From NCBI RefSeq assembly GCF_024502345.1, contig NZ_JALDNN010000001.1: 64,000 nt of DNA. One strand, written 5' to 3'. The position numbers were made by a program, and so were the translations under genes. Source of the stretch: Escherichia coli. Its GTDB lineage: Bacteria > Pseudomonadota > Gammaproteobacteria > Enterobacterales > Enterobacteriaceae. The notes under the pieces were generated by a model. It did no database searches. It was given only the letters and a program-made list of their open reading frames with translations, and was not told where the DNA came from. Shown here in pieces: positions 30,063-47,407 of this stretch. How positions within the stretch are numbered: the first letter of the stretch is position 1; each line of letters opens with the position of its first letter.

Positions 30063-31772
30063 ATGAGTATGTTTCAGATATCAGCTGGAGTGTTCTTTGA
30101 TTTAGATAAAATAGAAAAACACGATGGCGCATTTGTTTTTTATTCAAATGTTGATGTGTCTTTCTCGGTGGAAAACACCTCCCCTCTTTTTAAAGCAAAT
30201 AAAATAAGTCATGATGGTATAAACTGTTATGTGGTAAACTATACTCTCCTGACCGAAAAACCAGAACGAATTGAAGCTGGAGTCGTAGTTAGGGCTGGTG
30301 ATGAGGATTATAGGCAACAATTTATTTTATTATGGGAATTCTATTTTGATTGTGTGGCTAGAGTAGAAAAAGAATCGGTTAAAAAAATATGTGCATTATC
30401 AAATTTTAATAAACATCACTCAAAAATTGCGCTTGAAGTTGCCCCATATTTAGTGGAGATTAACCGAAGAGTTTCATTTGATGATGTCTCTGGGTTTTCT
30501 GCTTTTATTAAAGATGTAGTGAATCTAAATAGATCTGCCTTTAAATCTTTAATGGCAGCGTTAAAAATAATTAGTGATTCAAAAGAATCATTGTCAACCA
30601 ACTTTGACCTGACTTATTCCATGTTAGTCTATGCCTTGGAGTCTTTGTCTCAAAGAAATGATAACTATAAGTCTGATTGGGATGACTACGATCAAAAAAC
30701 CAGAGGTGAATTAGAGTCTGTATTTGAGCATATGCCTGGTGAGGATGTTTGTAAAATTAAATCAATACTTATTGAAGGCAAACAATTCAGATTACAAAAA
30801 AGGTTCAAAGATTTTATACTGAAAAATCTTGAAGAAAATTATTTCAATGAAACAGAGAGATATCCAATCCGCTATAGCTTCCTTAGTAGAGCTTTAGATA
30901 ATTTATACAAAATCAGGTCTTCTTTTGTCCATGAGCTTAAGCCACTTGATGCAATGATCTCGAAAGCCTACAATCCTGTTGGTGATTGTCTGGTTCTTTT
31001 TGGCGAACCTCACTTCAGTTACTCTGGATTGCTTCGACTTCTTCGCCATGTGATAATAAATTTTTGCCGTAAAAACTACAGTCAAAAAAGAGAGTATGTT
31101 AATTGGGTGATGGAAACATCGGGTGTAATGGTTGCAGAGATATCTGCACAATATTGGCTCTGGAATGCAGACGGATTTACAGCTAAAAGTATAGCGAAGT
31201 GGTTTAGTGAATACCTAAATATGTTAAATTTAGGCGAAGTCACTGATTTGCAGTCTATCATGGACAAAATTGAGATAATCTATGACCAATCCAAAAAAGA
31301 ATATAAAAATGGGTTGTTGTATTTTTATTTCTTATATAACTTAATGCATAATGGAAATAAGGGTGAATGGCTTGAGTTTGCGAACAAGCGAAGTTCTATA
31401 CTTGTTTGTGATATATATTGGTATTCATGCTCTCCATATTTATATAAATCATTTACTAATGTTTCAAATGGTATTGCTGATATAAAAACATTGAGAAACT
31501 TTTTGTCTTGTTTTAACGAATATGATAAAAATAAATTTAAGCCAAATCGTTTAAATCTCCCTGCAATGACCGAAGTAATTATGTTGGCTTGCGCAGCAAA
31601 TTCATTCTTCAGAATTGGAATGTATCAAGACTATGTTTTAATGGGCAATAGAGCGATGAGAGAAATTGCTTCAGTAAAAGATGTATTTTATTATATAAAA
31701 GAACGATTAAGTAATTCACAACTTATTGAATTGGACGAGTGCTTGAGATTGTATAGAAAAAAAGGGGGCTAA
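30063..31772 (+). CDS. Hypothetical protein, 569 aa, AT-rich, no family recognised
   Basis: Single long ORF with strong AT bias; GAGT-containing RBS-like sequence before the ATG; bracketed by integrase 3' remnants and inverted IS903 copies. Confidence 0.75.
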   Translation: MSMFQISAGVFFDLDKIEKHDGAFVFYSNVDVSFSVENTSPLFKANKISHDGINCYVVNYTLLTEKPERIEAGVVVRAGDEDYRQQFILLWEFYFDCVARVEKESVKKICALSNFNKHHSKIALEVAPYLVEINRRVSFDDVSGFSAFIKDVVNLNRSAFKSLMAALKIISDSKESLSTNFDLTYSMLVYALESLSQRNDNYKSDWDDYDQKTRGELESVFEHMPGEDVCKIKSILIEGKQFRLQKRFKDFILKNLEENYFNETERYPIRYSFLSRALDNLYKIRSSFVHELKPLDAMISKAYNPVGDCLVLFGEPHFSYSGLLRLLRHVIINFCRKNYSQKREYVNWVMETSGVMVAEISAQYWLWNADGFTAKSIAKWFSEYLNMLNLGEVTDLQSIMDKIEIIYDQSKKEYKNGLLYFYFLYNLMHNGNKGEWLEFANKRSSILVCDIYWYSCSPYLYKSFTNVSNGIADIKTLRNFLSCFNEYDKNKFKPNRLNLPAMTEVIMLACAANSFFRIGMYQDYVLMGNRAMREIASVKDVFYYIKERLSNSQLIELDECLRLYRKKGG

Positions 31773-31932
31773 CCCCTTTTATTTTTAACGTATTCTCCCC
31801 ACCAATCCATCAATTCAATTCGCTGCACGAGATAAGTAGAACGATTGTATGCTTTTCTAACTTCATTTTTATCACTGTGGGCTAAGGCAGACTCGATAAC
31901 ATCAGGATTTAATCCAGCTTCATTCATGGCTG
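31769..31932 (-). pseudogene. Tyrosine integrase, 3' remnant (~50 codons), truncated by IS903
   Basis: Reverse strand translates ...AMNEAGLNPDVIESALAHSDKNEVRKAYNRSTYLVQRIELMDWWGEYVKNKRG*; abuts IS903 end at 31933. Confidence 0.55.
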
Positions 31933-32673
31933 GGCTTTGTTGAATAAATCGAACTTTTGCTGAGTTGAAGGATCAGATCACGTATCTTCCCGACAACGCA
32001 GACCGTTCCGTGGCAAAGCAAAAGTTCAAAATCACCAACTGGCCCACCTACAATAAAGCCCTCATCAACCGTGGCTCCATAACTTTCTGGCTGGATGATG
32101 AAGCTATTCAGGCCTGGTATGAGTCAGCAACACCTTCTTCACGAGGCAGACCTCAGCGCTATTCTGACCTTGCCATCACGACTGTGCTGGTCATTAAACG
32201 CGTATTCAGGCTGACCCTGCGCGCTGCGCAGGGCTTTATTGATTCCATTTTTTCTCTGATGAACGTTCCGCTACGCTGCCCGGATTACAGCTGTGTCAGC
32301 AGGCGGGCAAAGTCGGTTAATGTCAGTTTCAAAACGCCCACCCGGGGTGAAATCGCACACCTGGTAATTGATTCCACCGGGCTGAAGGTCTTCGGTGAAG
32401 GCGAGTGGAAAGTCAAAAAGCATGGCCAGGAACGCCGCCGTATCTGGCGTAAGCTGCATCTCGCCGTTGACAGTAAAACACATGAAATCATCTGCGCTGA
32501 CCTGTCGCTGAACAACGTTACGGACTCAGAGGCCTTCCCCGGGTTAATCCGGCAAACCCACCGGAAAATCAGGTCAGCCGCCGCCGATGGCGCTTACGAT
32601 ACCCGGCTATGTCACGATGAACTGCGGCGTAAGAAAATCAGCGCGCTTATCCCTCCCCGAAAAGGTGCGGGTT
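31933..32673 (+). mobile_element. IS903-family element, truncated second copy (~741 bp), inverted relative to copy 1
   Basis: Starts with GGCTTTGTTGAATAAATCGAACTTTTGCTGAG; identical to copy 1 up to ...AAAGGTGCGGGTT, then diverges into the yfjP-like fragment. Confidence 0.9.
31965..32673 (+). pseudogene. IS903-family transposase, C-terminally truncated
   Basis: First ~236 codons identical to the copy-1 transposase; track ORF continues in unrelated out-of-frame sequence. Confidence 0.8.
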
Positions 32674-33094
32674 GCATCACACCGTTCCAGAACTGCTCGT
32701 CCACCGACAGCGCACGGTCATCAGCTTTGATGACCCACAGCACCAGGTCAAGCTCTGGCAGCATACGCCGGTACAGGGCGCGGTATTCATGGTCCCGTTG
32801 TCCGTTCTCTCCCACGCCCGGTAAATCAACAATCACCAGACTGTGACGACCACTGCGCAGCCGGAAGCGCAGTATGTCGCGGGTGCAGGCGTTCACATCA
32901 CTGACGGCGGAGACTTCCCCCCGAAAGAGTTCGTTACAGAGCGACGACTTACCGGCACCACTCTTGCCCATGATGCCAATCACCGGCTCGTAGTGGGTCA
33001 GATTCTGAATACGTTCAAGAATAAGCTGGCGAAGCGTATCGGGAAGCGACGCCAGCGGTTTTTCCAGGGCCTGAAGGCCATCAGTTTTATTCAT
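32674..33094 (-). pseudogene. yfjP: YfjP/YkfA/YeeP-family GTPase, N-terminal fragment
   Basis: MNKTDGLQALEKPLASLPDTLRQLILERIQNLTHYEPVIGIMGKSGAGKSSLCNELF... (P-loop GKSGAGKS); cut short at the IS903 junction. Confidence 0.75.
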
Positions 33095-33726
33095 ACAGGG
33101 TTCTCAGCGTGAAAAACAAAAATCCCCGCGCTCCGGTCAGGGAGGCGGGGGATTCACGGAGATAATATCTATCTGAATTTATTTAGAATATAAGCAGGCT
33201 CATGTAACTGTAGCAGTGTCAACTTTACATCACAGCTCATGTTGGCTGGTGGTATTTTGCCAATAGTAGACATTTACGCCTAGGTTTAGATATCGAAATT
33301 AGTACACCAATATAGATACAGCAAAGAGGGAACTGATTTGTCTGCGCGAGACTAGAACCGTTGCCCCCTGTGGTTCGATGGATTGCAGGAAAATCATTTC
33401 CGGTGCTGAAGAGAGCCTCCGATACAACCTGAGAATATTTTAAGAACATCAAAATGAATGACGTAATTTACTCAAAGGCGATTGCCTAATATGTCATGAT
33501 ATTAGTAGCATTTAATTGCGTGAAAGTTTGTATATTCTTTTGAATTTATCTCAAAGCTAAAACCTCGTCAAAAATACACAAAAGGGTTTTGAGAAACAAG
33601 AGCCTGATGCTGAATCTGCTACAGAGCTGGGTTCTGTTCTGTTAAACTTGCGGTTAAAAATTTCCAAGAAAACCTAGGATATGACATGAGTTCACTGCAC
33701 ACCAGTAGTAGCAGCAGGGCGGTCAC

Positions 33727-36540
33727 ATGCCAATGGAGAGCTGTACGCAAATGAACGCCGTAGAAATTGAACAAGCCATCACGGATCTTGCAGAGCAACC
33801 CTTTGATCCTATAGAGTTTCCTTATGCTTTTCTTGAAGCCTTTGGTAACAAGGAAACGACTGTCAAACGCTTGCGCGCCGGTGCATCAAACAAATCCGAC
33901 TTGGGCGGTGTTCTCCAGAGCAATAATATTCACATTCTGACCTGCGAAGCAGGGACTGTGACTCAGATGTTGGCCGCGCTCAAGGCTAGCCCTGCGACAA
34001 CTAAAGCCAAGGCGAAGTTCATCCTGGCTACAGATGGCAAAGATTTCGAAGCTGAAGACCTCGTTAGCGGTCAGACTGTCGCTTGCGCCTTTAAAGACTT
34101 CCCAGATCACTTCGGCTTTTTCTTGCCATTAGCAGGCATTAGCACAGTTCGTCAGATTTGTGAGAACTCCTTTGACATTCGGGCCACTAGCCGGCTGAAT
34201 CGTCTGTATGTCGAGTTGTTGAAAGATAACCCTACCTGGGGGACGGCGGAGCGACGTCATGACATGAACAAATTCATGACTCGGCTGATCTTTTGTTTTT
34301 TCGCTGAGGATACTGACATTTTCGTGGGTAAGGGACGCTTTACTGAAACCGTTGCGCAGATGAGTACAAGAGATTCGTCGAATACGCATGAAGTTATCGC
34401 TACCTTGTTTCGTGCCATGAACACCAGTAACAAAGATAGAGCCGCCGCTGGCATCCCGCGCTGGGCCAATGAGTTTCCTTATGTCAACGGACGCTTGTTC
34501 TCTGGGAGTAATGATGTACCACTGTTCAGTAAGATTGCACGGTCTTATTTGCTCCATGTGGGTAGCCTTGACTGGACCAAGATTAATCCGGATATCTTTG
34601 GCTCGATGATTCAGGCAATTGCCGAAGACGAAGAACGCGGAGAGCTGGGGATGCATTACACCAGCGTACCCAACATCTTAAAAGTTTTGAATCCACTATT
34701 TCTGGACGACCTGCGCGCAAAGCTGGATGAGGCGGGTGACAATCCGCGTATGTTGCTTAACCTGCGTAAGCGCATTTCCCACATCCGTGTGTTCGACCCA
34801 GCGTGCGGTTCTGGTAACTTTTTGGTTATCGCGTACAAGGAAATGCGTGCCATTGAGGCCGAAATCAACAAGCGGCGTAATGAGCCAGATCGCGCCTCGG
34901 ATATCCCACTTACCAACTTTCGCGGGATTGAACTAAGAGATTTCCCGGCAGAGATCGCCCGCCTTGCGCTTGTTATCGCTGAGTACCAATGTGATGTACT
35001 GTACCGTGGGCTGCGGTTGGCCTTGGCTGAGCTTCTTCCGTTACGCAACGAAAATTGGATTACCTGTGGCAATGCACTACGGCTCGACTGGTTAAGAATT
35101 TGCCCGCCGACAGGAACAGGTGTGAAATTACATGGCGATGACTTGTTTGGATCTCCGCTTGATCAGGCAGAGATCGACTTTGAGAATGAAGGCGGAGAGA
35201 CATACATTTGCGGTAACCCACCATACCTTGGTTCAAAGTGGCAGACGGATGAACATAAAGCTGATCTTGGCACAATCTTTTCTGGTCGCGTGAAAAATTG
35301 GAAATCGCTCGATTATGTTGCTGGCTGGTTCCTGAAAGCCGCTGACTATGGTAGCCAGACAAGTTCCCAGGCTGCTTTTGTTGCCACTAATTCAATCAGC
35401 CAAGGGCAGCAAGTGTCGATTCTGTGGCCGGAAATATTCAAGGCAGGACAAGAGATTAGTTTCGCTTACACGAGCTTTAAGTGGTCGAACCTCGCTACTC
35501 ACAACGCCGGGGTCACAGTTGTTATCATCGGAATTTCTAACTGTGTAGGAAAGTCGCGACGCCTCTTTTCGGCTGGAGGAGACAATGGTGCGACGACGTG
35601 TCGTGAGGTGGAGCGCATCAACGCCTATTTGATCGCTGGCCCTAACATCATTGTGGAGGGGGACAGTTGTCCAGCCGACAGTCTTGCAACGATGCAGTTC
35701 GGTAACCACCCGTACTATGGTGCATCACTGATCTTTTCGAGATCTGAAGCACAGCAGATGATGTCTGTCGATCCGCGTACGGCGCGTTTTATTCGCCCAC
35801 TATATGGCTCCCAAGAGTTCATTTCCGCTGTGCCACGAGCCTGTCTATGGATTAACGACGATGAGGCTGACGAAGCGGGGACGATTCCTCTGATAGCTGA
35901 GCGTATGAGCGCCGTAGCAAGTGCTAGACGTGCAAAAAAACAAGACAAGGCAGCCCAGAAACTGGCTAAGACTCCATATCGCTTTCGCGACCAGCAGACA
36001 TCTACGAATCATATTCTTGTGGTTCCTCGAGTCAGTTCAGAGAACCGTCCTTGCTTGCCGGTTGGATTACTTGACTCTGACTCTATCGTTCAAGATCAAG
36101 CATTCGCCCTTTACGACGCTCCTCTCTGGAACCTCGCCATCATAGCGAGTCGCCTGCATCTAGTTTGGATCGCCACGGTTTGTGGAAAGTTAGAGACACG
36201 CTACCGCTATTCAAACACCCTCGGCTGGAATACTTTCCCGCTCCCAACACTCACTGAGAAAAATAAGGCAGACCTCACGCGCTGTGCAGAGGATATTCTT
36301 CTGACTAGGGAGCATCACTTCCCTGCAACCATTGCAGACCTTTATGACCCCGAGAAGATGCCAGACGACCTGCGTATTGTGCACGAGCGTAATGACGAAG
36401 TGCTTGAGCGTATTTACATTGGGCGCCGCTTTAAGAATGACACAGAGCGGCTTGAGAAGCTGTTTGACCTTTATACTAAGATGGCCGCTTCAACTGCATC
36501 GGGCAAAAGCAATAAACGTAAAGTGGGAACCAATGCATGA
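33727..36540 (+). CDS. MmeI/PglX-like gamma-class N6-adenine DNA methyltransferase, 937 aa; no recognisable N-terminal PD-ExK motif
   Basis: Motif X-like HYTS, motif I VFDPACGSGNFLV, motif IV ICGNPPYLG; other blocks (RLIFCFFAEDTDIF, FPYVNGRLF, AFVATNSISQGQQVSILWP, LETRYRYSNTLGWNTFP) resemble the MmeI/PglX family from memory. Start could be Met-9 (33751). Confidence 0.85.
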   Translation: MPMESCTQMNAVEIEQAITDLAEQPFDPIEFPYAFLEAFGNKETTVKRLRAGASNKSDLGGVLQSNNIHILTCEAGTVTQMLAALKASPATTKAKAKFILATDGKDFEAEDLVSGQTVACAFKDFPDHFGFFLPLAGISTVRQICENSFDIRATSRLNRLYVELLKDNPTWGTAERRHDMNKFMTRLIFCFFAEDTDIFVGKGRFTETVAQMSTRDSSNTHEVIATLFRAMNTSNKDRAAAGIPRWANEFPYVNGRLFSGSNDVPLFSKIARSYLLHVGSLDWTKINPDIFGSMIQAIAEDEERGELGMHYTSVPNILKVLNPLFLDDLRAKLDEAGDNPRMLLNLRKRISHIRVFDPACGSGNFLVIAYKEMRAIEAEINKRRNEPDRASDIPLTNFRGIELRDFPAEIARLALVIAEYQCDVLYRGLRLALAELLPLRNENWITCGNALRLDWLRICPPTGTGVKLHGDDLFGSPLDQAEIDFENEGGETYICGNPPYLGSKWQTDEHKADLGTIFSGRVKNWKSLDYVAGWFLKAADYGSQTSSQAAFVATNSISQGQQVSILWPEIFKAGQEISFAYTSFKWSNLATHNAGVTVVIIGISNCVGKSRRLFSAGGDNGATTCREVERINAYLIAGPNIIVEGDSCPADSLATMQFGNHPYYGASLIFSRSEAQQMMSVDPRTARFIRPLYGSQEFISAVPRACLWINDDEADEAGTIPLIAERMSAVASARRAKKQDKAAQKLAKTPYRFRDQQTSTNHILVVPRVSSENRPCLPVGLLDSDSIVQDQAFALYDAPLWNLAIIASRLHLVWIATVCGKLETRYRYSNTLGWNTFPLPTLTEKNKADLTRCAEDILLTREHHFPATIADLYDPEKMPDDLRIVHERNDEVLERIYIGRRFKNDTERLEKLFDLYTKMAASTASGKSNKRKVGTNA

Positions 36541-38582
36541 GCAACAAGATTAGATCTGTACCGTCAGTTTCTGTTACCTACTCACGCAACGGAGCATCGA
36601 CCAAGGCTAATTCTCTTGGGATGCGTCCTATGCAAGAAAGGGCTTATGAGAAGCGCGGAGAACAATATCTTCTCATAAAGTCGCCGCCCGCCTCTGGCAA
36701 GAGTCGTGCGCTGATGTTCGTCGCACTCGATAAACTCGCAAACCAGGGGATCAAACAGGCAATCATTGTCGTGCCGGAAAAATCTATCGGCGCGAGCTTC
36801 AACGATGAACCGCTATCGCAGTTTGGATTCTGGGCTGATTGGCATGTTGAACCTAAGTGGAATCTGTGCAACGCCCCCGGTAACGACAACGGCGGCAAGG
36901 TAAAATCTTTCGGCTCTTTTCTTGAAAGTAGCGACAAGGTGCTTGTTTGTACACACGCAACCTTTCGCTTCGCGGTCGATGCCTACGGTGTAGAGGCGTT
37001 TGACGATCGCCTGATCGCCGTCGATGAATTTCACCATGTGTCCGCTAACCCGGATAACAAGCTTGGTCAGCATCTGGGACAGTTCATTGAGCGTGACAAG
37101 ACGCACATCGTGGCCATGACCGGCTCCTACTTCCGGGGAGATGCGGAAGCCGTTTTGGCTCCTCAGGATGAGTCTAGGTTCGATACCGTCACCTACACCT
37201 ACTACGAACAACTCAACGGTTACGAATACCTCAAACAGCTTGATATCGGATACTTCTTTTATAGTGGATCATACATTGATGACATCCTCAATGTCCTCGA
37301 TCCTGACAAGAAAACGATTATCCATATTCCCAACGTCAATTCGCGCGAGAGTACGAAGGATAAAATTAAGGAGGTGGAGCACATTCTGAGCGAGCTTGGC
37401 GATTGGCAAGGTGCGGATCCTACGACTGGTTTTCAGCTAGTCAAGCGCCCCGATGGCCATGTGTTGCGTATTGCTGACCTGGTGGACCCAGCCAGTCAAG
37501 GCAAGATTCAGGAAAGCCTCCGAGCTCCAGAAATGAAGACAGACCGTGACTATGTAGACATCATTATTGCACTTGGTATGGCGAAGGAAGGTTTCGACTG
37601 GATCTGGTGCGAACATGCGCTGACTGTTGGCTACCGTGCCAGCCTGACTGAGATCGTGCAGATTATCGGTCGCGCTACTCGCGACGCGCCGGGTAAAACC
37701 CGCGCGAGATTTACTAACTTGATCGCCGAGCCCGACGCTGTAGAGGGCGCAGTAACTGAGGCAGTCAACGATACCTTGAAAGCTATCGCGGCGAGCCTGT
37801 TGATGGAACAGGTACTGGCTCCGCGCTTCGAGTTCAAGCCCAAGAATCCTGAAATCGGTCCGACTCCAGGCTTTGATTATGGTGATGGAGGATATGACCC
37901 GGATAGCTGCAATTTTGGTGTTAATGAGCAGACAGGGACGTATCAAATCGAGATTAAGGGACTTGCCGAGCCTAGGAGCAAAGAGGCGGCACGTATCTGC
38001 CAGGAAGATTTAAACGAAGTGATCGCGGCCTTTGTGCAGGATAAGCCCGCCATCGAACGAGGCCTGTTCGATGAAGAGCTGATCCCTGAAGAGTTAACAC
38101 AGGTTCGTATGGGTAAGATCATCAAAGAAAAGTATCCTGAACTTGATGCTGAAGATCAGGAGGCTGTACGTCAGCATGCTATCGCCGCCCTTAACCTCAC
38201 GCAGCAGGCCAAGCGTCTTGCTACCGGTGAAAACGATGGGACGCTCAATACTGCTCTTATTGACGGAGTGCGTCGCTTTGCAATGGATGTGCGCGATTTA
38301 GACATAGACCTTATCGACCGCATCAATCCCTTTGGTGAAGCCTACGCTATCCTTGCTAAGACGATGAGTGAAGACAGTTTGAAGCAGGTCGCGGCGGCCA
38401 TCTCGGCCAAGCGTACTTCGATCACGCCTGAAGATGCCAAGGTGATCGCCAAGCGTGCCGCTGAATTCAAACGTGAACGTGGGCGCCTCCCATCGTTAAC
38501 TTCGCTGGATGCTTGGGAAAAACACCTTGCTGAAGGTGCAGCCGCGTTTATGCGTTTTAGGGCGGAGGGACGTTATGAGTAA
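36537..38582 (+). CDS. SF2 DExH-box helicase (ResIII-like), 681 aa, with ~270 aa C-terminal region of unknown function
   Basis: Motif I PPASGKS, motif II AVDEFHHV, motif III MTGS, motif VI QIIGRATRD; ATG overlaps the methyltransferase stop (ATGA). Confidence 0.85.
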   Translation: MSNKIRSVPSVSVTYSRNGASTKANSLGMRPMQERAYEKRGEQYLLIKSPPASGKSRALMFVALDKLANQGIKQAIIVVPEKSIGASFNDEPLSQFGFWADWHVEPKWNLCNAPGNDNGGKVKSFGSFLESSDKVLVCTHATFRFAVDAYGVEAFDDRLIAVDEFHHVSANPDNKLGQHLGQFIERDKTHIVAMTGSYFRGDAEAVLAPQDESRFDTVTYTYYEQLNGYEYLKQLDIGYFFYSGSYIDDILNVLDPDKKTIIHIPNVNSRESTKDKIKEVEHILSELGDWQGADPTTGFQLVKRPDGHVLRIADLVDPASQGKIQESLRAPEMKTDRDYVDIIIALGMAKEGFDWIWCEHALTVGYRASLTEIVQIIGRATRDAPGKTRARFTNLIAEPDAVEGAVTEAVNDTLKAIAASLLMEQVLAPRFEFKPKNPEIGPTPGFDYGDGGYDPDSCNFGVNEQTGTYQIEIKGLAEPRSKEAARICQEDLNEVIAAFVQDKPAIERGLFDEELIPEELTQVRMGKIIKEKYPELDAEDQEAVRQHAIAALNLTQQAKRLATGENDGTLNTALIDGVRRFAMDVRDLDIDLIDRINPFGEAYAILAKTMSEDSLKQVAAAISAKRTSITPEDAKVIAKRAAEFKRERGRLPSLTSLDAWEKHLAEGAAAFMRFRAEGRYE

Positions 38583-39753
38583 TTCTGATTTAGACGATTT
38601 GGCGGCAGAACTTGCTGAATTTGCACCACCGGAGAAGAAAAAAGGACGTCCAGCCAGCGAGGAACGCATCATCGCAGGTTTTGAGGAAATCCAGCGCTTC
38701 GCTGACCAACATGGACGTGCGCCGCAACACGGCGAAGAGCGTGAGATCTTTGAGCGCCTCTATGCAGTGCGGCTCGACCGGCTACGCAGTCTCCCAGACT
38801 GCCGTGCCTTGCTAGAGCCGCTGGATCATCAAGGCTTATTGGCTGGAGGGGGTGATGTAGCGGAGTCAGCGGACGAAATTATCGATATCGATAATTTGGC
38901 TGCCGAACTGACGGATGTTTCCAGCGAGGATGATATCACAGTCTTGCGTCATGTTCGTGCTAGCGCCGAAAAGCGTGCTGTACAAGGGATCGCGGATCGC
39001 AAGCCGTGCGAGGATTTTGATACATTCAAACCGCTATTTGAACAGGTGCGCAGTGATCTAAGTTCAGGGTTAAGAGTGACCCGACCTTTTGGACAGTATG
39101 CAACGATTGAAGTGGGCCATTGGTTCATCCTGGATGGTCAAACGGCTTATGTGGCTGAGGAAGGTGAAGAGTTCGATTCTCCACAGGGGAAGAAAGATGC
39201 TCGGCTGCGTGTCATTTATTCGAATGGTACAGAAAGTAACCTGCTTCGGCTGTCATTAGTTCGTGCTTTGTATAAAGACGAAACAGCACGTCGAATTACC
39301 GATCCAGACATGGGGCCTTTATTCAGCGATGCTCTAGAAGAGAGCGATCTAGAAAGTGGCACCATTTATGTATTGCGTTCGCTATCAGATAACCCTTATG
39401 TGGCCGAACATCGTGATGTTATTCACAAGATTGGTGTGACTGGCGGCAAGGTCGAGACTCGTATTGCTAATGCTGAACACGATTCCACCTATCTGTTGGC
39501 GAAGGTAGAGGTGGTCGCTTCATACAAACTCGCAGGTATCAACCGCACCCGGATGGAAAACCTGTTTCACAGGTTGTTTGCACCCGCAAGGCTTAACATT
39601 ACCATTAACGACCGTTTCGGCCATCCAGTACAGCCCGAGGAATGGTTTCTCGTTCCGTTATTCGTTATCGATGAGGCTGTTGCACGTATTAAGGATGGTA
39701 GCATCATTGGGTATGTTTATGACCCCATGTCTGCGAAACTGGTGAAGGCATAG
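38575..39753 (+). CDS. GIY-YIG-like / T5orf172-like domain protein, ~392 aa (tentative domain call)
   Basis: GGAGG RBS then ATG at 38575 overlapping helicase stop (ATGAGTAA); C-terminal region GTIYVLRS...YVAEHRDVIHKIGVTGGKVETRIAN resembles GIY...YIG-R; acidic N-terminus. Confidence 0.65.
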   Translation: MSNSDLDDLAAELAEFAPPEKKKGRPASEERIIAGFEEIQRFADQHGRAPQHGEEREIFERLYAVRLDRLRSLPDCRALLEPLDHQGLLAGGGDVAESADEIIDIDNLAAELTDVSSEDDITVLRHVRASAEKRAVQGIADRKPCEDFDTFKPLFEQVRSDLSSGLRVTRPFGQYATIEVGHWFILDGQTAYVAEEGEEFDSPQGKKDARLRVIYSNGTESNLLRLSLVRALYKDETARRITDPDMGPLFSDALEESDLESGTIYVLRSLSDNPYVAEHRDVIHKIGVTGGKVETRIANAEHDSTYLLAKVEVVASYKLAGINRTRMENLFHRLFAPARLNITINDRFGHPVQPEEWFLVPLFVIDEAVARIKDGSIIGYVYDPMSAKLVKA

Positions 39754-39868
39754 TGAAGTGACACACTGAATTTGGCCACCTGTTCTGAGGTGAGTATATC
39801 ACCTCAGAACAGCACAGGAATAAAAGATACTGATTTGAATGTACCTATACTTTGCGATGTGAGGATCA

Positions 39869-40660
39869 ATGAATAGTAACCTGACCAAGATATGTTACCG
39901 TGGTGAGACTGGTGAAAGTGATCTAAGAACGTTGATACTTGGTGAGATTCTATATATCTCACTACGAGATGTTTTAATCACGCTGAATAAAGAAAATAGA
40001 GAAATCAACGCTGATTACACAGTAAAATCGATGGCTGGAATAATCAGGGCGCAATTACAGGCTCTTGACCCTGATGAGTATATTACTACAGATGCTGAAA
40101 ATGGTGTTTTTGAAGGTCAGAAAGAGATCTTCGTCACCCAGCCAGGTTTGTATCGAGTCATGTCAAGTGACCGAAGCGCTGCCGGTAAGCGCTTTCAAAA
40201 ATGGTTATTTCATGAAGTCATACCATCATTGACTAAGCATGGTGTATACCCGCCTCCGCCAGAAGCGAAAGGTTCAGCCCTTGCACAAATGGCTGAGATA
40301 CTTGCTCAAAATTCGCGAGCACTTGCTGACGCAATCCATAAACACGAAAAACTGGCCGAAGATGTCTCACAGGTTAAAGGTAAAGTTGCCAACGTTGAAA
40401 GCCGTCTGGAACTGTTAGAATCAGGTCCTTCCACTGTAACTGAAGATATGCATACTCTTGATAGCCGTCTCGCTTATTTGGACATGAGCATGGAAGAAAA
40501 GCATACCACCGAGACATTAGCCTGGTGCGAGAATATTTCTGTTCAAAATAACAGGAAGGTGATTCGCAAGGACTGTAGGGAGAATTCGCTCTTTACAACG
40601 CAGACTATCGACGAAGCAATCGCTATCATGACTGAAAGTGGAAAAATCACACCAAATTGA
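39869..40660 (+). CDS. Bro-N domain protein (phage antirepressor-like), 263 aa
   Basis: ...GLYRVMSSDRSAAGKRFQKWLFHEVIPSLTKHG matches the Bro-N/Ant hallmark (F..W...EV.PSI); coiled-coil-like C-terminal half. Confidence 0.7.
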   Translation: MNSNLTKICYRGETGESDLRTLILGEILYISLRDVLITLNKENREINADYTVKSMAGIIRAQLQALDPDEYITTDAENGVFEGQKEIFVTQPGLYRVMSSDRSAAGKRFQKWLFHEVIPSLTKHGVYPPPPEAKGSALAQMAEILAQNSRALADAIHKHEKLAEDVSQVKGKVANVESRLELLESGPSTVTEDMHTLDSRLAYLDMSMEEKHTTETLAWCENISVQNNRKVIRKDCRENSLFTTQTIDEAIAIMTESGKITPN

Positions 40661-40748
40661 AGATCCTGGGGTTCAGATTATCTGCTGGCTATCTTATTGA
40701 GCTCTGACGTAAAATAGGCCTTCCCACAAAGAGAAGGCCATTGCCGAC

Positions 40749-41375
40749 TTACAGATCGATTTGGCTACAGCCGAAGTTACGGTCTCCTTCACCAAACACT
40801 TTGCTTTCGACTTTGGTGAGGTAATCCAGTCGGGTTAACAGCGCTTGGTAGTTATGCTGGAAGTCAGCATTATTGGTATCCAGCACGTACTTACAGTTGT
40901 CAGGAAAATGGACCAGACCAGGGTGATCATCCAGTTTCAGTCCCAGGGCGCTGTACCACGCTCCCGTAATCATCCCTCTCAGGTTATCGTGCTGATCGTA
41001 ATCCCCGAGGTGGTAGTAAGCGTCTTTGTTGAACAACAGGCAAATGTGGTAGTGGCATTTACCTGACTCAGAATACTCTTTCGCCCATATAATAAATAAA
41101 GGGCAACGGTAGATGCGTTTACCTTCACGCTCCTTACGGGTACGGTCAGCCTCCAGTTTAGCTCTGAGGGAATCACGCATTCGGGATATCACCCCTGGTT
41201 CAAGATTAGGGAAACAGCAGATATTGTCTCCGTTATCGACTATCTTCGGATAATGCAGATCGACACGTACCGCCGTTAACCTGGGGTAACGGTTAGTCAA
41301 ATAACATAATAATTTTTTAATCTTGATCTGATATTCGAGGATATGTACTCCATGAGTACCTTGATATGTTTTCAT
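40749..41375 (-). CDS. YagK/YfjJ-family protein (inovirus Gp2-like)
   Basis: 208 aa ORF with Cys/His-rich stretch (CHYHICLLFNKDAYYH); family assignment from memory of CP4-57/CP4-6 yfjJ/yagK. Confidence 0.6.
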   Translation of the reverse strand: MKTYQGTHGVHILEYQIKIKKLLCYLTNRYPRLTAVRVDLHYPKIVDNGDNICCFPNLEPGVISRMRDSLRAKLEADRTRKEREGKRIYRCPLFIIWAKEYSESGKCHYHICLLFNKDAYYHLGDYDQHDNLRGMITGAWYSALGLKLDDHPGLVHFPDNCKYVLDTNNADFQHNYQALLTRLDYLTKVESKVFGEGDRNFGCSQIDL

Positions 41376-41646
41376 AATATATATCTGTATTTGGTCCTAC
41401 GGTCTATAGCAGACCGTACAGGGATGCCATACAGGCAGGGCTATTCCTGGTCACTGTTGTCGGTATATACTGGTATCAGATCTTAGTACGGATATACTGA
41501 TCTGATTACTACTCTTACTGGTGAATACAGGTAGTAAGAGTACACAATGCCATTATATAATACCTATCCAACATCTAAATTTGAGACGAAGGTAGCCCCA
41601 GCCTGTGATGGCTGTTAAAAAGTTACTCTGCAATTAGCTTCTGGAA

Positions 41647-42216
41647 TTAACCGATGATTCCGTTATTCCAGTGCCGCTTCACAGTCGATAAACTGATACT
41701 CAATTTCTTTGCAATCTCAGCCTGAGTAAATCCACCTTTCTTAAGTATTGTGATATCACGTCGGTATTTGCTTCCCTCCTTTCGTCCTAATTTCTTCTTA
41801 ACATGTCGATATCGGCTTTTAGTTGATTTCAGATTGTGAATGTCAATCGTATCCTGACGAGCAATCAAAAAAGACAAGCAACTTTCAGCAGAAGGCTCTA
41901 TCCTTGAAGCTGGATGGTAGCTGTAGATAAAAATTTCTTTTTGAAGGCAAAAAAATAAAATATTCTGTAAGTCCTCCACAGTTCTGCCAAGACAGCTTAG
42001 ATCTGGAATGACAAGCGTGTCCTGCCGGTTCATTTCATGATGAATCAATTGTCTGAGTAAACGTTGCTCTGAAACAACCTCTTTAATATCTACCTGCTCG
42101 ATCACAACATGTTCAGGTAGAATATTAAATTTTTGGCATATCTCAGCAAGTGAGTGATGATCTGTAATGCTTTCTTGCTGTTCGCTACTGCATATGGTGT
42201 AAAAAAATGAACGCAT
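41647..42216 (-). CDS. Serine recombinase-like protein (resolvase/invertase fold), possibly catalytically altered
   Basis: From internal Met: MRSFFYTICSSEQQ (cf. YARVSTxxQ), LVIPDLSCLGRTVEDL (cf. DRLGR), C-terminal HTH GFTQAEIAKKLSISLSTVKRH. Track ORF extends to 42345. Confidence 0.6.
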   Translation of the reverse strand: MRSFFYTICSSEQQESITDHHSLAEICQKFNILPEHVVIEQVDIKEVVSEQRLLRQLIHHEMNRQDTLVIPDLSCLGRTVEDLQNILFFCLQKEIFIYSYHPASRIEPSAESCLSFLIARQDTIDIHNLKSTKSRYRHVKKKLGRKEGSKYRRDITILKKGGFTQAEIAKKLSISLSTVKRHWNNGIIG

Positions 42217-42371
42217 CTGATGCACTCCGGTGTCATAAATTATTCTTTGATACCTGAACAATGTCATTTTGTATAAAAAATAACCAAAAATAGAGCGTGA
42301 TTGCCAGCGATACTTTGAGTGGTAAAGTAGTATTTTACCTCTCATAATTGTTTGTCCTTCTTTGTTACCTC

Positions 42372-45620: not shown

Positions 45621-46862
45621 TCAAACAACAAGTTTTAATGCACCGGCACTAGATTCTACCATGCTTCCTTTATCTGCTCTTTTAACAAAATCAGCCCACC
45701 ATTGCATCATCGGCCTACGTTGCTCAAGATAATCACTGCGGTTATAAGCGCGACGTACCTCATTTTTGTCTACATGAGCAAGTGCGGCTTCAATGACATC
45801 AGGAGGAAATCCTTGCTCATTGAGGGCTGTACTGGCGATAGAACGCAAACCATGTGAAACCAGCACTCCCCCTAAACCGGCACGCTTGAGTGCAGCATTC
45901 ACGGTTTGACTGTTCATCGGCTGAGTGGGCTTAATGCGGCTTGGAAAAATAAAATCTCGGCCACCACTGAGCGGCTTCATCATTTCCAGAATAGCCAGAG
46001 CCCCATCAGATAATGGAACGGTATGGTCCCGGTTCATTTTCATTCGGGCTGCTGGAATTTTCCATTCGTTAGCATCAAAATCGATCTCATTCCACCGAGC
46101 TTCTGCGGCTTCTGCGGGGCGGGTGATGGTGAGAAGTTGCCACATGAACAGACACCGCGTAGACAGGCTGATACTGGCCGTACGCATAGTTTGCATCAAC
46201 TGAGGCAACTGATCCGGACGAATACTGGGCATGTTCTTTTTCTGAGGTTTCTCGAAGGCTTTGCCAATATTAACACTGGGAACTGCATCAATCAGGCCCG
46301 TGTTTTGGGCATAAATCATGACTTCATTGATCCGTTGGCAAAGACGGCGGACAGTTTCCAGTGCTCCTCGGGCCTGAACGGGTTGAACGGCTTGAACCAG
46401 TGTATGGGCTTTAATATCTGTAACGCTTACGTTGCCAATTGCGGGAAATATATCTCTTTCAAGCGAACGCCAGATATCATCAGCATAGTCCTCGGTTACA
46501 CTGGCTTTCTTCACATTCCACCAACGCTCGGCAACTAACAAGAAAGTGTTGGTTTTGGCCTCCTGAGAATTTCTTATCTGTTCTTTTTGGTATTCCTGAG
46601 GATCGATTCCTTTTGCCAGTAATACTTTGGATTCAGCTCTGAGCTTACGAGCATCGGAAAGCGAGACAGCAGGATAGGAACCGAAGCTCTGTTTAGTTCG
46701 CTGTTTTGTCAGAGGTCGGTAATAACGGAATTGCCAGAGCTTACTGCCACTGGATTTGATTAGCAGCGTCAGTCCGTCACCATCATACAACTGATAATCG
46801 GCATCTTTAGATTTGGCTGCTTTGATTTCCGTATCCGTTAACGGCTTGGTTTTTCTTGCCAC
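45621..46862 (-). CDS. intA: P4/CP4-57-type tyrosine integrase (IntA-like)
   Basis: 413 aa: MARKTKPLTDTEIKAAKSKDADYQLYDGDGLTLLIKSSGSKLWQFRYY...; C-terminal catalytic region HGLRSIASTA...AHVDKNEVRRAYNRSDY; adjacent to ssrA 3' end. Confidence 0.93.
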   Translation of the reverse strand: MARKTKPLTDTEIKAAKSKDADYQLYDGDGLTLLIKSSGSKLWQFRYYRPLTKQRTKQSFGSYPAVSLSDARKLRAESKVLLAKGIDPQEYQKEQIRNSQEAKTNTFLLVAERWWNVKKASVTEDYADDIWRSLERDIFPAIGNVSVTDIKAHTLVQAVQPVQARGALETVRRLCQRINEVMIYAQNTGLIDAVPSVNIGKAFEKPQKKNMPSIRPDQLPQLMQTMRTASISLSTRCLFMWQLLTITRPAEAAEARWNEIDFDANEWKIPAARMKMNRDHTVPLSDGALAILEMMKPLSGGRDFIFPSRIKPTQPMNSQTVNAALKRAGLGGVLVSHGLRSIASTALNEQGFPPDVIEAALAHVDKNEVRRAYNRSDYLEQRRPMMQWWADFVKRADKGSMVESSAGALKLVV

Positions 46863-47044
46863 GGTGGAGTCTCCATGCTTTTAGGCCCAACAAAGACCAT
46901 AGATCTTTTCGTTGGGCCTATCAATGGGCCTAAAACAATTAGCTTAGGTAGGATCAAATCAGATAGCGCTGGACATAAAAAAGCCCGTAAGTCGTTGTGA
47001 CTACGGGTTTTTTGGTTTTTCTTGGATTGCTTTGGAATAAAATT

Positions 47045-47407
47045 TGGTGGAGCTGGCGGGAGTTGAACCCGCGTCCGAAATTCCTACATCCTCGGTACTA
47101 CATGCTTAGTCAGTCTTTACATTCGCTTGCCAGCTGCGGACGGACACGCCACTAACAAACTAGCCTGATTAAGTTTTAACGCTTCAACCCCAGGCAGGGC
47201 TTCCACGCGATCTCTTTTGGGTTTGACCTCTCTTGATCCCCGTCCTAAGAGCGGAGGCTAGGGAGAGAGGGCTCTAAGCAGGTTATTAAGCTGCTAAAGC
47301 GTAGTTTTCGTCGTTTGCGACTATTTTTTGCGGCTTTTTACGAGGCCAACCGCCCCTCGGCATGCACCTTGGGTTTCGCAAATCCCGTCGAATCCAGAAT
47401 CAGCCCC
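47045..47407 (-). ncRNA. ssrA: tmRNA (SsrA), 363 nt
   Basis: Reverse complement begins GGGGCTGATTCTGGATTCGACGGG and ends GGTTCAACTCCCGCCAGCTCCACCA; terminator-like hairpin follows at ~46975-47015. Confidence 0.97.

What the first reader, a model, noticed from the sequence alone, without database searches (positions are those of the whole stretch)
33727..39753. Candidate undescribed defense operon: MmeI/PglX-like methyltransferase + SF2 helicase + GIY-YIG-like protein
Three co-directional genes with overlapping stop/start codons sit inside a tmRNA-integrated island. Gene 1 (937 aa) has gamma-class N6-adenine methyltransferase motifs (VFDPACGSGNFLV, ICGNPPYLG) and family blocks I recall from MmeI/PglX. 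Gene 2 (681 aa) has SF2 helicase motifs I, II (DEFH), III and VI. Gene 3 (~392 aa) has a GIY-YIG-like/T5orf172-like C-terminus. There is no PglZ or BrxC (BREX), no DrmB/DrmC (DISARM), and no classical Res nuclease subunit, so the combination matches no defense system I can name. A methyltransferase for self-marking plus helicase and putative nuclease effectors is the architectural logic of RM/BREX-like immunity.
Basis: partly seen in the sequence, partly recalled or inferred. Interest (0 to 1): 0.9.

Follow-up and report, generated by a model that had tools for sequence, protein, structure and literature searches.

The report
Known YeeA-YeeB-YeeC restriction-like operon
The three genes are real and intact, but they are the E. 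coli version of the DnmA(YeeA)-YeeB-YeeC operon, a methylase-helicase-nuclease trio first described in 2009 and shown to block phages in one Vibrio strain, so this is not an undescribed defence system, although how it works is still untested.

Summary
Observation confirmed. Three co-directional, overlapping genes lie at 33727-39753, in an island next to tmRNA and its integrase.

The "undescribed" claim fails. Gene 1 has all five MmeI-family domains but lacks the MmeI E80-x-K82 nuclease motif. Gene 2 is an SF2 helicase. Gene 3 has a T5orf172/GIY-YIG C-terminus. The three proteins are collinear homologues of B. subtilis DnmA (39%), YeeB (49%) and YeeC (35%).

Morgan et al. (2009) described this exact class and proposed a Type I-like restriction-modification system. 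In V. crassostreae, yeeAB protects against some phages. The B. subtilis copy showed no defence.

New here:
- The trio is syntenic in the 80 loci kept from at least 554 matching genome stretches, and lies on 262 plasmids.
- All three genes are under strong purifying selection (dN/dS about 0.04-0.09).
- Only the target-recognition domain diversifies, at the known MmeI specificity positions.
- The MmeI code retrodicts DnmA's GACGAG site and predicts 5'-NNG(G/R)AC-3' for this enzyme.
- About half the loci carry unrelated guest defence genes between genes 1 and 2.

Verdict: a new member of a known but mechanistically uncharacterised kind. Interest is moderate.

The parts
33113..33726 (.). Non-coding stretch upstream of gene 1; presumed promoter region, not demonstrated
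   Evidence: No ORF of 80 aa or more. The sigma-70 consensus scan found no more sites than shuffled sequence. Sequence read.
33727..36540 (+). Gene 1: YeeA/DnmA-type MmeI-family N6-adenine DNA methyltransferase with target-recognition domain (937 aa from 33727; likely start ATG 33751, 929 aa)
   Evidence: Five MmeI Pfam domains. PADLOC PDLC03598 matched full length, E=4e-284. E=4e-138 to MmeI 5HR4 over residues 96-935. 39% identity over 919 aa to B. subtilis DnmA.
33751..34227 (+). Gene 1 N-terminal domain (aa 9-167): MmeI_N fold without the catalytic E-x-K; inferred docking or regulatory module
   Evidence: Pfam MmeI_N E=5e-33. No phmmer similarity to any PDB chain, including MmeI residues 1-107. 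In hhalign, MmeI E80 and K82 align to window positions 71 and 73, which are A/L/V and C/A/S across 72 orthologs. dN/dS is 0.01-0.04.
34723..35568 (+). Gene 1 gamma-class m6A methyltransferase domain (aa 333-614), with motif I FDPACGSGNFL and motif IV NPPY
   Evidence: Pfam MmeI_Mtase E=1e-115. Motifs read.
35638..36252 (+). Gene 1 target-recognition domain (aa 638-842), the hypervariable part. Specificity residues are R768/D790, Q791/R827 and E823/R825
   Evidence: Pfam MmeI_TRD E=5e-79. Mean identity to 71 orthologs is 0.47, against 0.73-0.82 for the other domains. dN is about 0.5, against about 0.05. Mapping to the MmeI specificity positions.
36537..38582 (+). Gene 2: YeeB-type SF2 helicase/translocase (681 aa)
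   Evidence: Weak Pfam DEAD/ResIII. 49% identity over 620 aa to YeeB of B. subtilis, E=0. About 43% to V. crassostreae YeeB. Motifs I, II, III and VI are invariant across Proteobacteria and Firmicutes. The AF2 core is a two-RecA-lobe SF2 fold, and Foldseek hits include HsdR of EcoR124I, WRN/RecQ and MDA5.
38575..39753 (+). Gene 3: YeeC-type protein (392 aa) with helical N-terminal and beta-rich middle domains of unknown function and a C-terminal T5orf172/GIY-YIG nuclease domain
   Evidence: Pfam T5orf172 and MUG113. 35% identity over 372 aa to B. subtilis YeeC, E=2e-56. 2,402 cluster representatives at E<=1e-3. AF2 mean pLDDT 88.
39352..39753 (+). Gene 3 GIY-YIG-type domain (aa 260-392). Invariant residues: Y265 (GxIY), K285-I-G287, R296, E328, E356-W357
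45621..47407 (-). Context: P4-type integrase (45621-46862) and tmRNA gene ssrA (47045-47407), marking the island's integration end
   Evidence: ARAGORN tmRNA with tag ANDENYALAA. NCBIfam PRK09692 integrase, 900 bits. The same layout is annotated in E. coli 2013C-4282.

Best explanation
This is an intact E. coli member of the DnmA(YeeA)-YeeB-YeeC family: an MmeI-derived, three-subunit, Type I-like restriction-modification system carried as cargo of an ssrA-integrated island.

Shown here:
- Gene 1 keeps the MmeI methyltransferase, target-recognition and C-terminal domains.
- Its N-terminal domain has lost the MmeI E-x-K catalytic residues, yet is the most constrained part of the protein.
- Genes 2 and 3 keep all SF2 motor motifs and the GIY-YIG core residues.
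- All three genes are translationally coupled, syntenic across phyla and under strong purifying selection.
- Only the recognition domain diversifies, at the positions that set MmeI specificity.

Inferred mechanism:
- Gene 1 recognises a short asymmetric site, predicted 5'-NNG(G/R)AC-3', and methylates the adenine on one strand to mark self DNA.
- On unmethylated foreign DNA, the bound gene 1 protein uses its repurposed N-terminal domain to recruit or license the YeeB ATP-driven motor and the YeeC nuclease, which cut the DNA.
- Nuclease activity would depend on the methyltransferase subunit, as in Type I systems. That would explain why a dnmA deletion is viable in B. subtilis.
For: Family membership:
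- Homology to the real B. subtilis operon (locus L087): DnmA 39% over 919 aa, YeeB 49% over 620 aa, YeeC 35% over 372 aa.
- About 43% and 32% identity to V. crassostreae YeeB and YeeC.
- The same gene order holds in 80 of 80 fetched loci, and around a YeeC homologue only 37% identical to gene 3.

Nuclease-dead N-domain:
-, matching the class definition of Morgan 2009.

All three genes functional:
- dN/dS is 0.05 for gene 2, 0.09 for gene 3 and 0.01-0.04 for the gene 1 N-domain, with dS often saturated.
- Catalytic motifs are invariant.

R-M-type specificity diversification:
- TRD identity is 0.47 against 0.73-0.82 elsewhere.
- The 72 orthologs show 40 different residue combinations at MmeI positions 751/773, 774/810 and 806/808, built mostly from the same residue pairs as the published code.
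- The code applied to DnmA gives NNCGAG, matching its measured GACGAG site.

Defence context:
- Guest genes of known defence-candidate families sit between genes 1 and 2 in about half the loci.
- The helicase is on 262 plasmids and almost absent from phages.

Experiment in the literature:
- yeeAB inactivation in V. crassostreae 7F1_18 restored sensitivity to one phage group.
Against: - No biochemical demonstration of cleavage, translocation or complex formation exists for any member.
- In B. subtilis, deleting dnmA, yeeB or yeeC changed neither plasmid transformation nor infection by three phages, and the DnmA motif is not depleted in phage genomes. That YeeB is C-terminally short, at 599 aa against about 640 in other Firmicutes and 681 here.
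- The Vibrio knock-outs were plasmid insertions that could be polar, and yeeC was not tested.
- Structure searches do not tie the helicase specifically to HsdR-type translocases; WRN, DEAD-box and MDA5 score equally.
- The role of the N-domain as a docking module is pure inference.
- The predicted recognition motif rests on transferring a code from nuclease-active MmeI enzymes. It was validated here on one case only (DnmA).
Confidence: 0.7

Rival explanations
1. Gene 1 is an ordinary stand-alone Type IIG/IIL restriction-modification enzyme like MmeI, cutting with its own N-terminal nuclease. The helicase and T5orf172 genes are unrelated neighbours. This is what PADLOC-style annotation implies.
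For: Full-length match to PADLOC REase_MTase_IIG PDLC03598, E=4e-284. All five MmeI Pfam domains, including MmeI_N. E=4e-138 to MmeI.
Against: The first 95 residues show no sequence similarity to MmeI. In the profile alignment, MmeI E80 and K82 fall on A/L/V and C/A/S in all 72 orthologs, and no conserved E-x-K exists nearby. B. subtilis DnmA lacked endonuclease activity under the conditions used for other MmeI homologues. The helicase and nuclease genes follow gene 1 in 80 of 80 loci, often with overlapping codons.
Confidence: 0.03
2. The operon is an evolutionary relic. Gene 1 survives as an orphan epigenetic methyltransferase regulating host genes, and genes 2 and 3 are inactive leftovers. 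This is the interpretation proposed for B. subtilis and assumed for S. mutans DnmA.
For: In B. subtilis there was no restriction of plasmid or three phages, and m6A affects promoter activity. The S. mutans DnmA preprint treats the enzyme as regulatory.
Against: Here all three ORFs are full length, with invariant catalytic motifs. dN/dS is 0.04-0.09 for genes 2 and 3, which is incompatible with decaying relics. Specificity residues diversify combinatorially, which is not expected for a housekeeping regulator. The locus sits on a mobile island and on many conjugative plasmids. It is present in only 98 of 5,426 complete E. coli genomes. The window's YeeB and YeeC have the full length of the active Vibrio proteins, unlike the shorter B. 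subtilis ones.
Confidence: 0.1
3. It is a methylation-marked defence that does not work by simple cleavage of unmodified DNA. Options are BREX-like replication exclusion, or a helicase-nuclease triggered by phage replication intermediates, with methylation serving only as a self-mark or regulator.
For: Gene 1 is structurally related to PglX/BrxX (weak hits). The DnmA motif is not avoided by Bacillus phages, and the authors argue any defence must differ from canonical R-M. The Vibrio system protected only against one phage subgroup.
Against: No PglZ, BrxC, BrxL or Drm genes were found among the neighbours scanned, and no conserved fourth gene exists in 78 loci. BREX MTase models score far below cut-off (26 bits against 500). 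A conserved GIY-YIG catalytic core argues for DNA cutting.
Confidence: 0.15
4. It is a categorically new, previously undescribed defence system.
For: Genes 2 and 3 match no PADLOC or NCBIfam family. No named system in the searched literature covers the trio.
Against: The trio was described and interpreted in 2009 and studied in 2020-2023. Direct homology to that operon was shown here.
Confidence: 0.02

Closest known systems
B. subtilis dnmA(yeeA)-yeeB-yeeC operon (Morgan 2009; Nye 2020; Fernandez 2023)
   Same: Same three genes in the same order. DnmA is 39%, YeeB 49% and YeeC 35% identical, collinear over nearly full length. Same Pfam architecture. The N-domain lacks PD-ExK. Both sit in a horizontally acquired region.
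   Different: B. subtilis YeeB is C-terminally shorter (599 against 681 aa) and YeeC is 382 against 392 aa. The specificity residues differ: S/N, L/R, K/D giving GACGAG, against R/D, Q/R, E/R here. The B. subtilis genes are separated by short gaps, whereas the window genes overlap. The B. subtilis copy showed no defence.
V. crassostreae 7F1_18 yeeA/yeeB(/yeeC) (Piel et al. 2021 preprint)
   Same: Gammaproteobacterial member on a strain-specific mobile region. YeeB is about 43% identical over residues 11-677 and YeeC about 32% over residues 5-391, so the full-length forms match. It is the only member with a reported anti-phage phenotype.
   Different: Different host and island. The identities come from a machine-read figure, so they are approximate. 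The recognition site is unknown for both.
MmeI and the Type IIL/IIG family (PDB 5HR4)
   Same: Methyltransferase, TRD and C-terminal domains are homologous (E=4e-138). The specificity-determining positions are shared and vary with largely the same residue pairs. There is no second methyltransferase gene nearby, so single-strand modification is likely.
   Different: The catalytic E80-x-K82 of the N-terminal nuclease is absent. Cleavage is presumably delegated to a separate ATP-dependent motor and a GIY-YIG nuclease. The enzyme is not stand-alone.
Type I R-M systems (for example EcoR124I HsdM/HsdS/HsdR)
   Same: Separate modification/recognition and motor/nuclease functions. An SF2 motor with HsdR among its best structural matches. 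A hypervariable recognition module. Unrelated guest defence genes inserted inside the operon (the comparison with Type I and BREX operons rests on my own knowledge). Viability of the methylase deletion in B. subtilis fits nuclease dependence on the M subunit.
   Different: Recognition and methylation lie in one MmeI-type polypeptide with a short asymmetric site, not HsdM2S1 with a bipartite site. The motor and nuclease are two proteins, and the nuclease is GIY-YIG rather than PD-ExK. No sequence-level membership.
Type ISP enzymes (LlaGI, LlaBIII)
   Same: Nuclease, SF2 motor, gamma-class m6A methyltransferase and TRD acting on asymmetric sites with one-strand methylation (from established knowledge; Morgan 2009 also mentions such single-chain relatives).
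   Different: There all modules are fused in one chain, in the order nuclease-motor-MTase-TRD, with a Mrr/PD-ExK nuclease. Here there are three chains in the order MTase/TRD, motor, GIY-YIG nuclease. Not tested by sequence here.
BREX PglX/BrxX and DISARM DrmMI methyltransferases
   Same: Related gamma-class MTase core (weak hits). Self-marking of asymmetric sites.
   Different: Scores are far below family cut-offs. No PglZ, BrxC, BrxL or DrmA/B/C was found in the locus.

Membership tests
DnmA/YeeA-YeeB-YeeC class (MmeI homologues of 'group 2', Morgan 2009) | MmeI-homologous protein with similarity along the methyltransferase, TRD and C-terminal regions | tested here: met
   Pfam MmeI_hel, MmeI_Mtase, MmeI_TRD and MmeI_C. 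phmmer to 5HR4 E=4e-138. 39% identity over 919 aa to DnmA.
DnmA/YeeA-YeeB-YeeC class (MmeI homologues of 'group 2', Morgan 2009) | N-terminal domain lacks the PD-(D/E)xK motif aligned with MmeI D70, E80 and K82 | tested here: met
   MmeI residues 1-205 verified against 5HR4. In hhalign, E80 and K82 align with positions 71 and 73, which are A/L/V and C/A/S in 72 orthologs. Only the D70 equivalent (D58) is kept in this clade, and even that is lost in DnmA.
DnmA/YeeA-YeeB-YeeC class (MmeI homologues of 'group 2', Morgan 2009) | Immediately followed by a YeeB-like DEAD-type helicase gene | tested here: met
   49% identity over 620 aa to a protein named 'YeeB [Bacillus subtilis]'. 4-nt overlap with gene 1.
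DnmA/YeeA-YeeB-YeeC class (MmeI homologues of 'group 2', Morgan 2009) | Then a YeeC-like conserved protein with GIY-YIG/T5orf172 motifs | tested here: met
   35% identity over 372 aa, E=2e-56, to the gene after yeeB in B. subtilis. Pfam T5orf172/MUG113. GxIY...KIG...R...E...EWF conserved.
DnmA/YeeA-YeeB-YeeC class (MmeI homologues of 'group 2', Morgan 2009) | No second DNA methyltransferase gene flanking | tested here: met
   None among the ORFs of 80 aa or more that were scanned between 27 and 47 kb with NCBIfam and PADLOC.
DnmA/YeeA-YeeB-YeeC class (MmeI homologues of 'group 2', Morgan 2009) | Site-specific m6A on one strand of an asymmetric site | not testable with these tools
   Only a prediction from the MmeI code: NNG(G/R)AC.
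DnmA/YeeA-YeeB-YeeC class (MmeI homologues of 'group 2', Morgan 2009) | Anti-phage or restriction activity | not testable with these tools
   The literature is mixed: positive in V. crassostreae, negative in B. subtilis.
Type IIG/IIL single-chain R-M enzymes (MmeI family proper) | Catalytic D...E-x-K endonuclease motif in the N-terminal domain | tested here: not met
Type IIG/IIL single-chain R-M enzymes (MmeI family proper) | Stand-alone gene with no consistently flanking partner genes (Morgan 2009) | tested here: not met
   Helicase and nuclease follow in 80 of 80 loci.
BREX | PglX methyltransferase scoring above the family cut-off | tested here: not met
   NF033452 scored 25.8 bits against a cut-off of 500.
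BREX | PglZ phosphatase and BrxC ATPase in the locus | tested here: not met
   No such hit among the 16 window proteins scanned. No conserved fourth gene in 78 related loci.
DISARM | DrmA helicase, DrmB (DUF1998) and DrmC (PLD) alongside the DrmMI/MII methylase | tested here: not met
   Only partial DrmMI hits on gene 1 (108 bits, C-terminal half). Genes 2 and 3 have no Drm hits.
Type I R-M | HsdM, a separate HsdS, and HsdR with a fused PD-ExK nuclease | tested here: not met
   No NCBIfam or PADLOC Hsd hit of significance. HsdR appears only as one of many SF2 structural matches. The trio works like Type I at most and is not a member.

The most novel reading that the evidence does not exclude
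The YeeABC trio may be a distinct, biochemically uncharacterised type of ATP-dependent restriction-modification system. An MmeI-type subunit with a nuclease-dead but highly constrained N-terminal domain would act as the site sensor and allosteric licence for a separate SF2 motor and a GIY-YIG nuclease, with protection by methylation of only one strand. The E. coli copy, which is full length like the active Vibrio one, would be a tractable model, with programmable specificity through the known MmeI code. The slot between genes 1 and 2 would be a dedicated docking site for back-up defence genes.
Probability: 0.5. Interest if true: 0.55.

Novelty: new member of a known kind. Interest (0 to 1): 0.35.

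Why it matters
The operon itself is not a discovery. The class has been in the literature since 2009, and annotation pipelines already flag gene 1, although as the wrong R-M type.

It still matters modestly for four reasons.

1. The class is widespread. At least 554 stretches of the one-genome-per-species collection and 262 plasmids carry it, yet no one has shown how it cuts DNA. The only two functional tests disagree.
2. This E. coli copy is intact and full length. It also comes with a concrete, testable predicted recognition motif, which makes the open question directly testable in a standard host.
3. PADLOC labels such genes 'Type IIG', and other catalogues probably do the same (not tested). 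That over-counts single-chain enzymes and hides a three-gene system.
4. The guest-gene slot between genes 1 and 2 is a ready source of candidate defence genes.

Tried and rejected
- **PADLOC and NCBIfam on genes 2 and 3.** Only noise-level hits (PbeA, dnd_restrict_1), so no named family.
- **PDB sequence searches with gene 2, gene 3 and the gene 1 N-domain.** Nothing significant.
- **Foldseek with the helicase model** (mean pLDDT 68). Generic SF2 matches that do not discriminate HsdR-like from RecQ, DEAD-box or RIG-I-like motors.
- **Search for a second copy of the tmRNA 3' end (attL).** None at up to 3 mismatches in the window, so the far island boundary is not defined.
- **Promoter and terminator consensus scan of 33000-40800.** No excess over shuffles.
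- **Literature searches for a newer named system covering the trio.** None found. The NAR 2026 domain-centric screen does not mention it.
- **A conserved fourth gene up- or downstream.** Rejected: the largest cluster covers 4 of 78 loci.
- **BREX, DISARM, Type I and plain Type IIG.** Considered and rejected; see the membership tests.
- **dS was saturated in most cross-genus comparisons.** dN/dS is therefore reliable only for the closest pair, Buttiauxella L003.

Full report
**Observation**

The window holds three co-directional ORFs at 33727-36540, 36537-38582 and 38509-39753.
- Genes 1 and 2 share ATGA.
- Gene 3 most likely starts at ATG 38575, 8 nt before the gene 2 stop and 5 nt after a GAGGGA ribosome-binding site. 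This gives 392 aa, as in RefSeq annotation of identical E. coli loci.
- Gene 1 probably starts at ATG 33751 (929 aa), because ortholog similarity begins at residue 8-9 and RefSeq uses that start.
- tmRNA (47045-47407, minus strand) and a complete P4-type integrase (45621-46862) lie downstream.
- The same island layout is annotated in E. coli 2013C-4282 and KCJ3K291, whose trio is 98-100% identical at the protein level.

**What the proteins are**

- Gene 1 has all five Pfam domains of the MmeI family: N, helical spacer, MTase, TRD and C.
- It matches MmeI (PDB 5HR4) at E=4e-138 from residue 96 onward.
- It matches one PADLOC 'REase_MTase_IIG' model end to end (E=4e-284).
- BREX and DISARM methylase models hit only weakly, far below their cut-offs.
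- Gene 2 is an SF2 ATPase with weak DEAD/ResIII Pfam hits.
- Gene 3 has a T5orf172/MUG113 C-terminus.
- Neither gene 2 nor gene 3 matches any PADLOC or NCBIfam family.

**It is already described**

Morgan et al. 2009 (PMC2731913) split MmeI homologues into two groups.
- One group has the PD-ExK motif (MmeI D70, E80, K82) and no conserved neighbours.
- The other lacks the motif, "such as YeeA from Bacillus subtilis". Its members are "invariably" followed by a YeeB-like DEAD helicase and a YeeC-like GIY-YIG protein.

The authors proposed that the MmeI-like subunit supplies specificity and protective modification, while the helicase and endonuclease subunits cut. This would be a link to Type I systems, but with single-strand modification.

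Later work:
- Nye et al. 2020 showed that YeeA (renamed DnmA) makes m6A at GACGAG. They found no effect on growth or plasmid transformation.
- Fernandez et al. 2023 showed conserved dnmA-yeeB-yeeC synteny across bacteria. They found no protection against three Bacillus phages and concluded it is a relic.
- In Vibrio crassostreae 7F1_18, inactivating yeeA/yeeB restored sensitivity to one phage group.

**Direct test of membership**

- Fig. S5 of the 2023 paper, held as text, gave approximate YeeB and YeeC sequences for both species.
- Using the B. subtilis YeeB transcript as a query recovered a database protein named 'YeeB [Bacillus subtilis]'.
- From its encoding contig I fetched the real operon (L087).
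- Gene 1 is 39% identical to DnmA over 919 aa, collinear from residue 1.
- Gene 2 is 49% identical to YeeB over 620 aa.
- Gene 3 is 35% identical to YeeC over 372 aa (E=2e-56).
- Against the V. crassostreae transcripts, gene 2 is about 43% identical (residues 11-677) and gene 3 about 32% identical (residues 5-391).
- The E. coli proteins therefore have the full length of the active Vibrio ones. B. subtilis YeeB is C-terminally short: 599 aa, against about 640 in other Firmicutes.

**The missing nuclease motif**

- I verified the MmeI N-terminal sequence against 5HR4.
- The first 171 residues of gene 1 find nothing in the PDB, even at E<=10.
- A profile of 72 orthologs aligns to MmeI 1-205 (hhalign probability 97%).
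- In that alignment D58 falls on MmeI D70.
- MmeI E80 and K82 fall on positions 71 and 73, which are A/L/V and C/A/S in the orthologs.
- No conserved E/D-x-K exists in the neighbourhood.
- DnmA lacks even the D.
- Yet this domain is the most constrained part of gene 1: identity 0.80 and dN/dS 0.01-0.04.
- It therefore has a function other than catalysis. I infer partner docking or licensing.

**Distribution and selection**

- The best 80 loci are 78-97% identical over the full length. They span Gamma-, Beta-, Alpha- and Deltaproteobacteria, Acidobacteria, and MAGs labelled Bacteroidetes and Gemmatimonadetes.
- Every locus with enough flank has gene 1, gene 2 and gene 3 in that order and strand.
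- A YeeC homologue only 37% identical to gene 3 sits in the same trio.
- Gene 3 has 2,402 cluster representatives at E<=1e-3.
- The helicase is on 262 plasmids, 118 of them conjugative, and is essentially absent from phage genomes.
- Within E. coli, 98 of 5,426 complete genomes carry genes 2 and 3, all on the chromosome.
- The high identity is not just recent transfer. dS is above 1.5 or saturated in most pairs while dN is 0.05-0.1. In the unsaturated Buttiauxella pair, dN/dS is 0.05 for gene 2 and 0.09 for gene 3.
- SF2 motifs I (PPASGKS), II (DEFHH), III (TGS) and VI (QIIGRxTRD) are invariant from Proteobacteria to Firmicutes.
- In gene 3, Y265, K285, G287, R296, E328, E356 and W357 are invariant in 76 diverse homologues.

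**Specificity diversification, the strongest functional clue**

- Among the 72 orthologs the TRD averages 47% identity to the window protein, against 73-82% for the other domains. Its dN is about tenfold higher.
- Morgan & Luyten 2009 (PMC2731914) showed that MmeI-family specificity is set by residue pairs at three sites:
  - E751/N773 set position 3.
  - A774/R810 set position 4.
  - E806/R808 set position 6.
- Mapping these positions shows that DnmA has S/N, L/R and K/D. By the published rules this gives NNCGAG, which matches its measured GACGAG.
- The window protein has R768/D790 (G at position 3), Q791/R827 (a purine at position 4, probably G because of the larger side chain) and E823/R825 (C at position 6).
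- The predicted site is therefore 5'-NNG(G/R)AC-3', with the adenine methylated.
- The 72 orthologs show 40 combinations, built mostly from the same residue pairs: ExR, KxD or RxD; K+S, L+R or A+R; R/K+D or S/A+N.
- This combinatorial turnover on an otherwise frozen scaffold is what an R-M system under phage pressure looks like. It is hard to reconcile with a housekeeping epigenetic regulator.

**Guest genes**

- In about half of the loci, 0.3-2.6 kb is inserted between the gene 1 stop and the gene 2 start. In many loci the guest start overlaps the gene 1 stop.
- The inserted genes belong to many unrelated families.
- Identified families:
  - PADLOC candidate PDC-S02, whose matches overlap the PD_DExK nuclease model.
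  - PADLOC candidate PDC-S05.
  - An OLD/AriA/NsnB-like ATPase.
  - A HEC-05/PDC-M55C-like protein.
  - Several families with no match.
- To my knowledge the same habit is known for Type I R-M and BREX operons. It supports a defence role.
- The window's copy has no guest gene.
- No fourth gene is conserved up- or downstream.

**Structure**

- The gene 3 model is confident (pLDDT 88). It has a helical N-terminal part, a beta-rich middle domain and a C-terminal alpha/beta domain.
- The helicase model is mediocre (pLDDT 68). It matches many SF2 enzymes, including HsdR of EcoR124I, without discrimination.

**Mechanism**

Shown:
- An intact m6A methyltransferase-TRD protein without its own nuclease motif.
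- An intact SF2 motor.
- An intact GIY-YIG-type core.
- Tight operon coupling, co-inheritance, purifying selection and specificity turnover.

Inferred:
- Self DNA is marked on one strand at an asymmetric site.
- On unmarked DNA, the gene 1 protein recruits or activates YeeB and YeeC through its N-terminal domain.
- ATP-driven translocation or unwinding delivers the GIY-YIG nuclease, which cuts the DNA.
- Nuclease action depends on the methylase subunit, which fits the viability of a dnmA deletion.

Rivals:
- Stand-alone Type IIG enzyme: contradicted by the missing motif and the synteny.
- Relic or orphan methylase: contradicted here by selection and intactness.
- A BREX-like, non-cleaving mode: not excluded, but the partner genes are absent.

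**Verdict**

- The finding is real but not novel in kind. It is an unstudied E. coli member of the YeeA/DnmA-YeeB-YeeC class.
- Its value is as a tractable, full-length example of a widespread class whose mechanism has never been shown.
- The predicted recognition site and defined point mutants make the 2009 hypothesis directly testable.

Noticed in passing
Related loci L004-L079, between the gene 1 stop and the gene 2 start (for example L009:4775-5834, L029:3552-5435, L015:4402-6988, L049:3492-5222): About half of the related loci carry one or two co-directional guest genes in this slot, and in many the guest start overlaps the gene 1 stop. Families include PADLOC candidates PDC-S02 and PDC-S05, an OLD/AriA/NsnB-like ATPase and a HEC-05-like protein. 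Unknown families include a 337-366-aa group in 10 loci, a 253-263-aa group in 7 loci and a 447-aa pair. The window's copy has no guest gene.
   Followed up: partly
window 30063-31772 (+): A 569-aa ORF in the most AT-rich part of the window (GC about 0.34). It has no Pfam or NCBIfam match and only a weak PADLOC hit to Cas13-ApeA (E=7e-6, residues 150-275). It is annotated 'hypothetical protein' next to an integrase-domain protein in the 18 complete E. coli genomes that carry it nearly full length. It is a possible orphan island cargo or defence gene.
   Followed up: partly
window 27374-32846: A composite or decayed island structure lies upstream of the operon. It holds an IS3 transposase ORF (27374-28240), a full IS5 transposase (28381-29349, minus strand) and a 139-aa fragment matching the C-terminal third of the same P4-type integrase family as the ssrA-adjacent one (29481-29900, minus strand). 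It also holds a truncated IS5 transposase (31965-32846). This suggests two islands in tandem, or a rearranged one. No second copy of the tmRNA 3' end was found in the window.
   Followed up: partly
Loci L003-L082 compared with window 36537-38582: The YeeB helicase is unusually conserved for a mobile defence gene. It is 78-97% identical across several phyla, with synonymous sites saturated (dS above 1.5) and dN/dS about 0.04. About 190 columns are invariant between Proteobacteria and Firmicutes. The region after residue 430 matched no Pfam domain apart from a weak PMBR hit, and is predicted with low confidence.
   Followed up: partly
L087:6001-7800 (B. subtilis yeeB) compared with P0284-P0390: B. 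subtilis YeeB is 599 aa, whereas nearly all other Firmicutes homologues are 635-645 aa and the E. coli and Vibrio proteins are about 680 aa. The missing C-terminal piece could explain the negative defence assays in B. subtilis, as Fernandez et al. also suggested.
   Followed up: partly
window 39869-40660 (+) and 40749-43085 (-): The gene after the trio is annotated as a BRO-N domain protein in E. coli 2013C-4282, followed by YagK (inovirus Gp2 family), YagL and YagM homologues. These are CP4-type island backbone genes rather than part of the system. They are absent downstream of the identical trio in strain KCJ3K291 and are not conserved in other genera.
   Followed up: partly
Loci L010, L011, L063 (downstream of gene 3); L007, L008, L062; L011, L029, L072 (upstream of gene 1): A few loci have extra large ORFs (about 870-900 aa) directly after gene 3; in L010 and L011 the ORF overlaps the gene 3 stop by 4 nt, but in L063 it lies on the opposite strand. 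Others have a 186-207-aa ORF overlapping the gene 1 start. These are possible lineage-specific accessory subunits. They were not identified.
   Followed up: no
window 36537-38582, residues 628-653: There is a weak Pfam hit to the pseudomurein-binding repeat (PMBR, E=0.019) in the helicase C-terminus. One plasmid record (Roseomonas mucosa) annotates the homologue as 'pseudomurein-binding repeat-containing protein', which is probably a spurious name propagating in databases.
   Followed up: no
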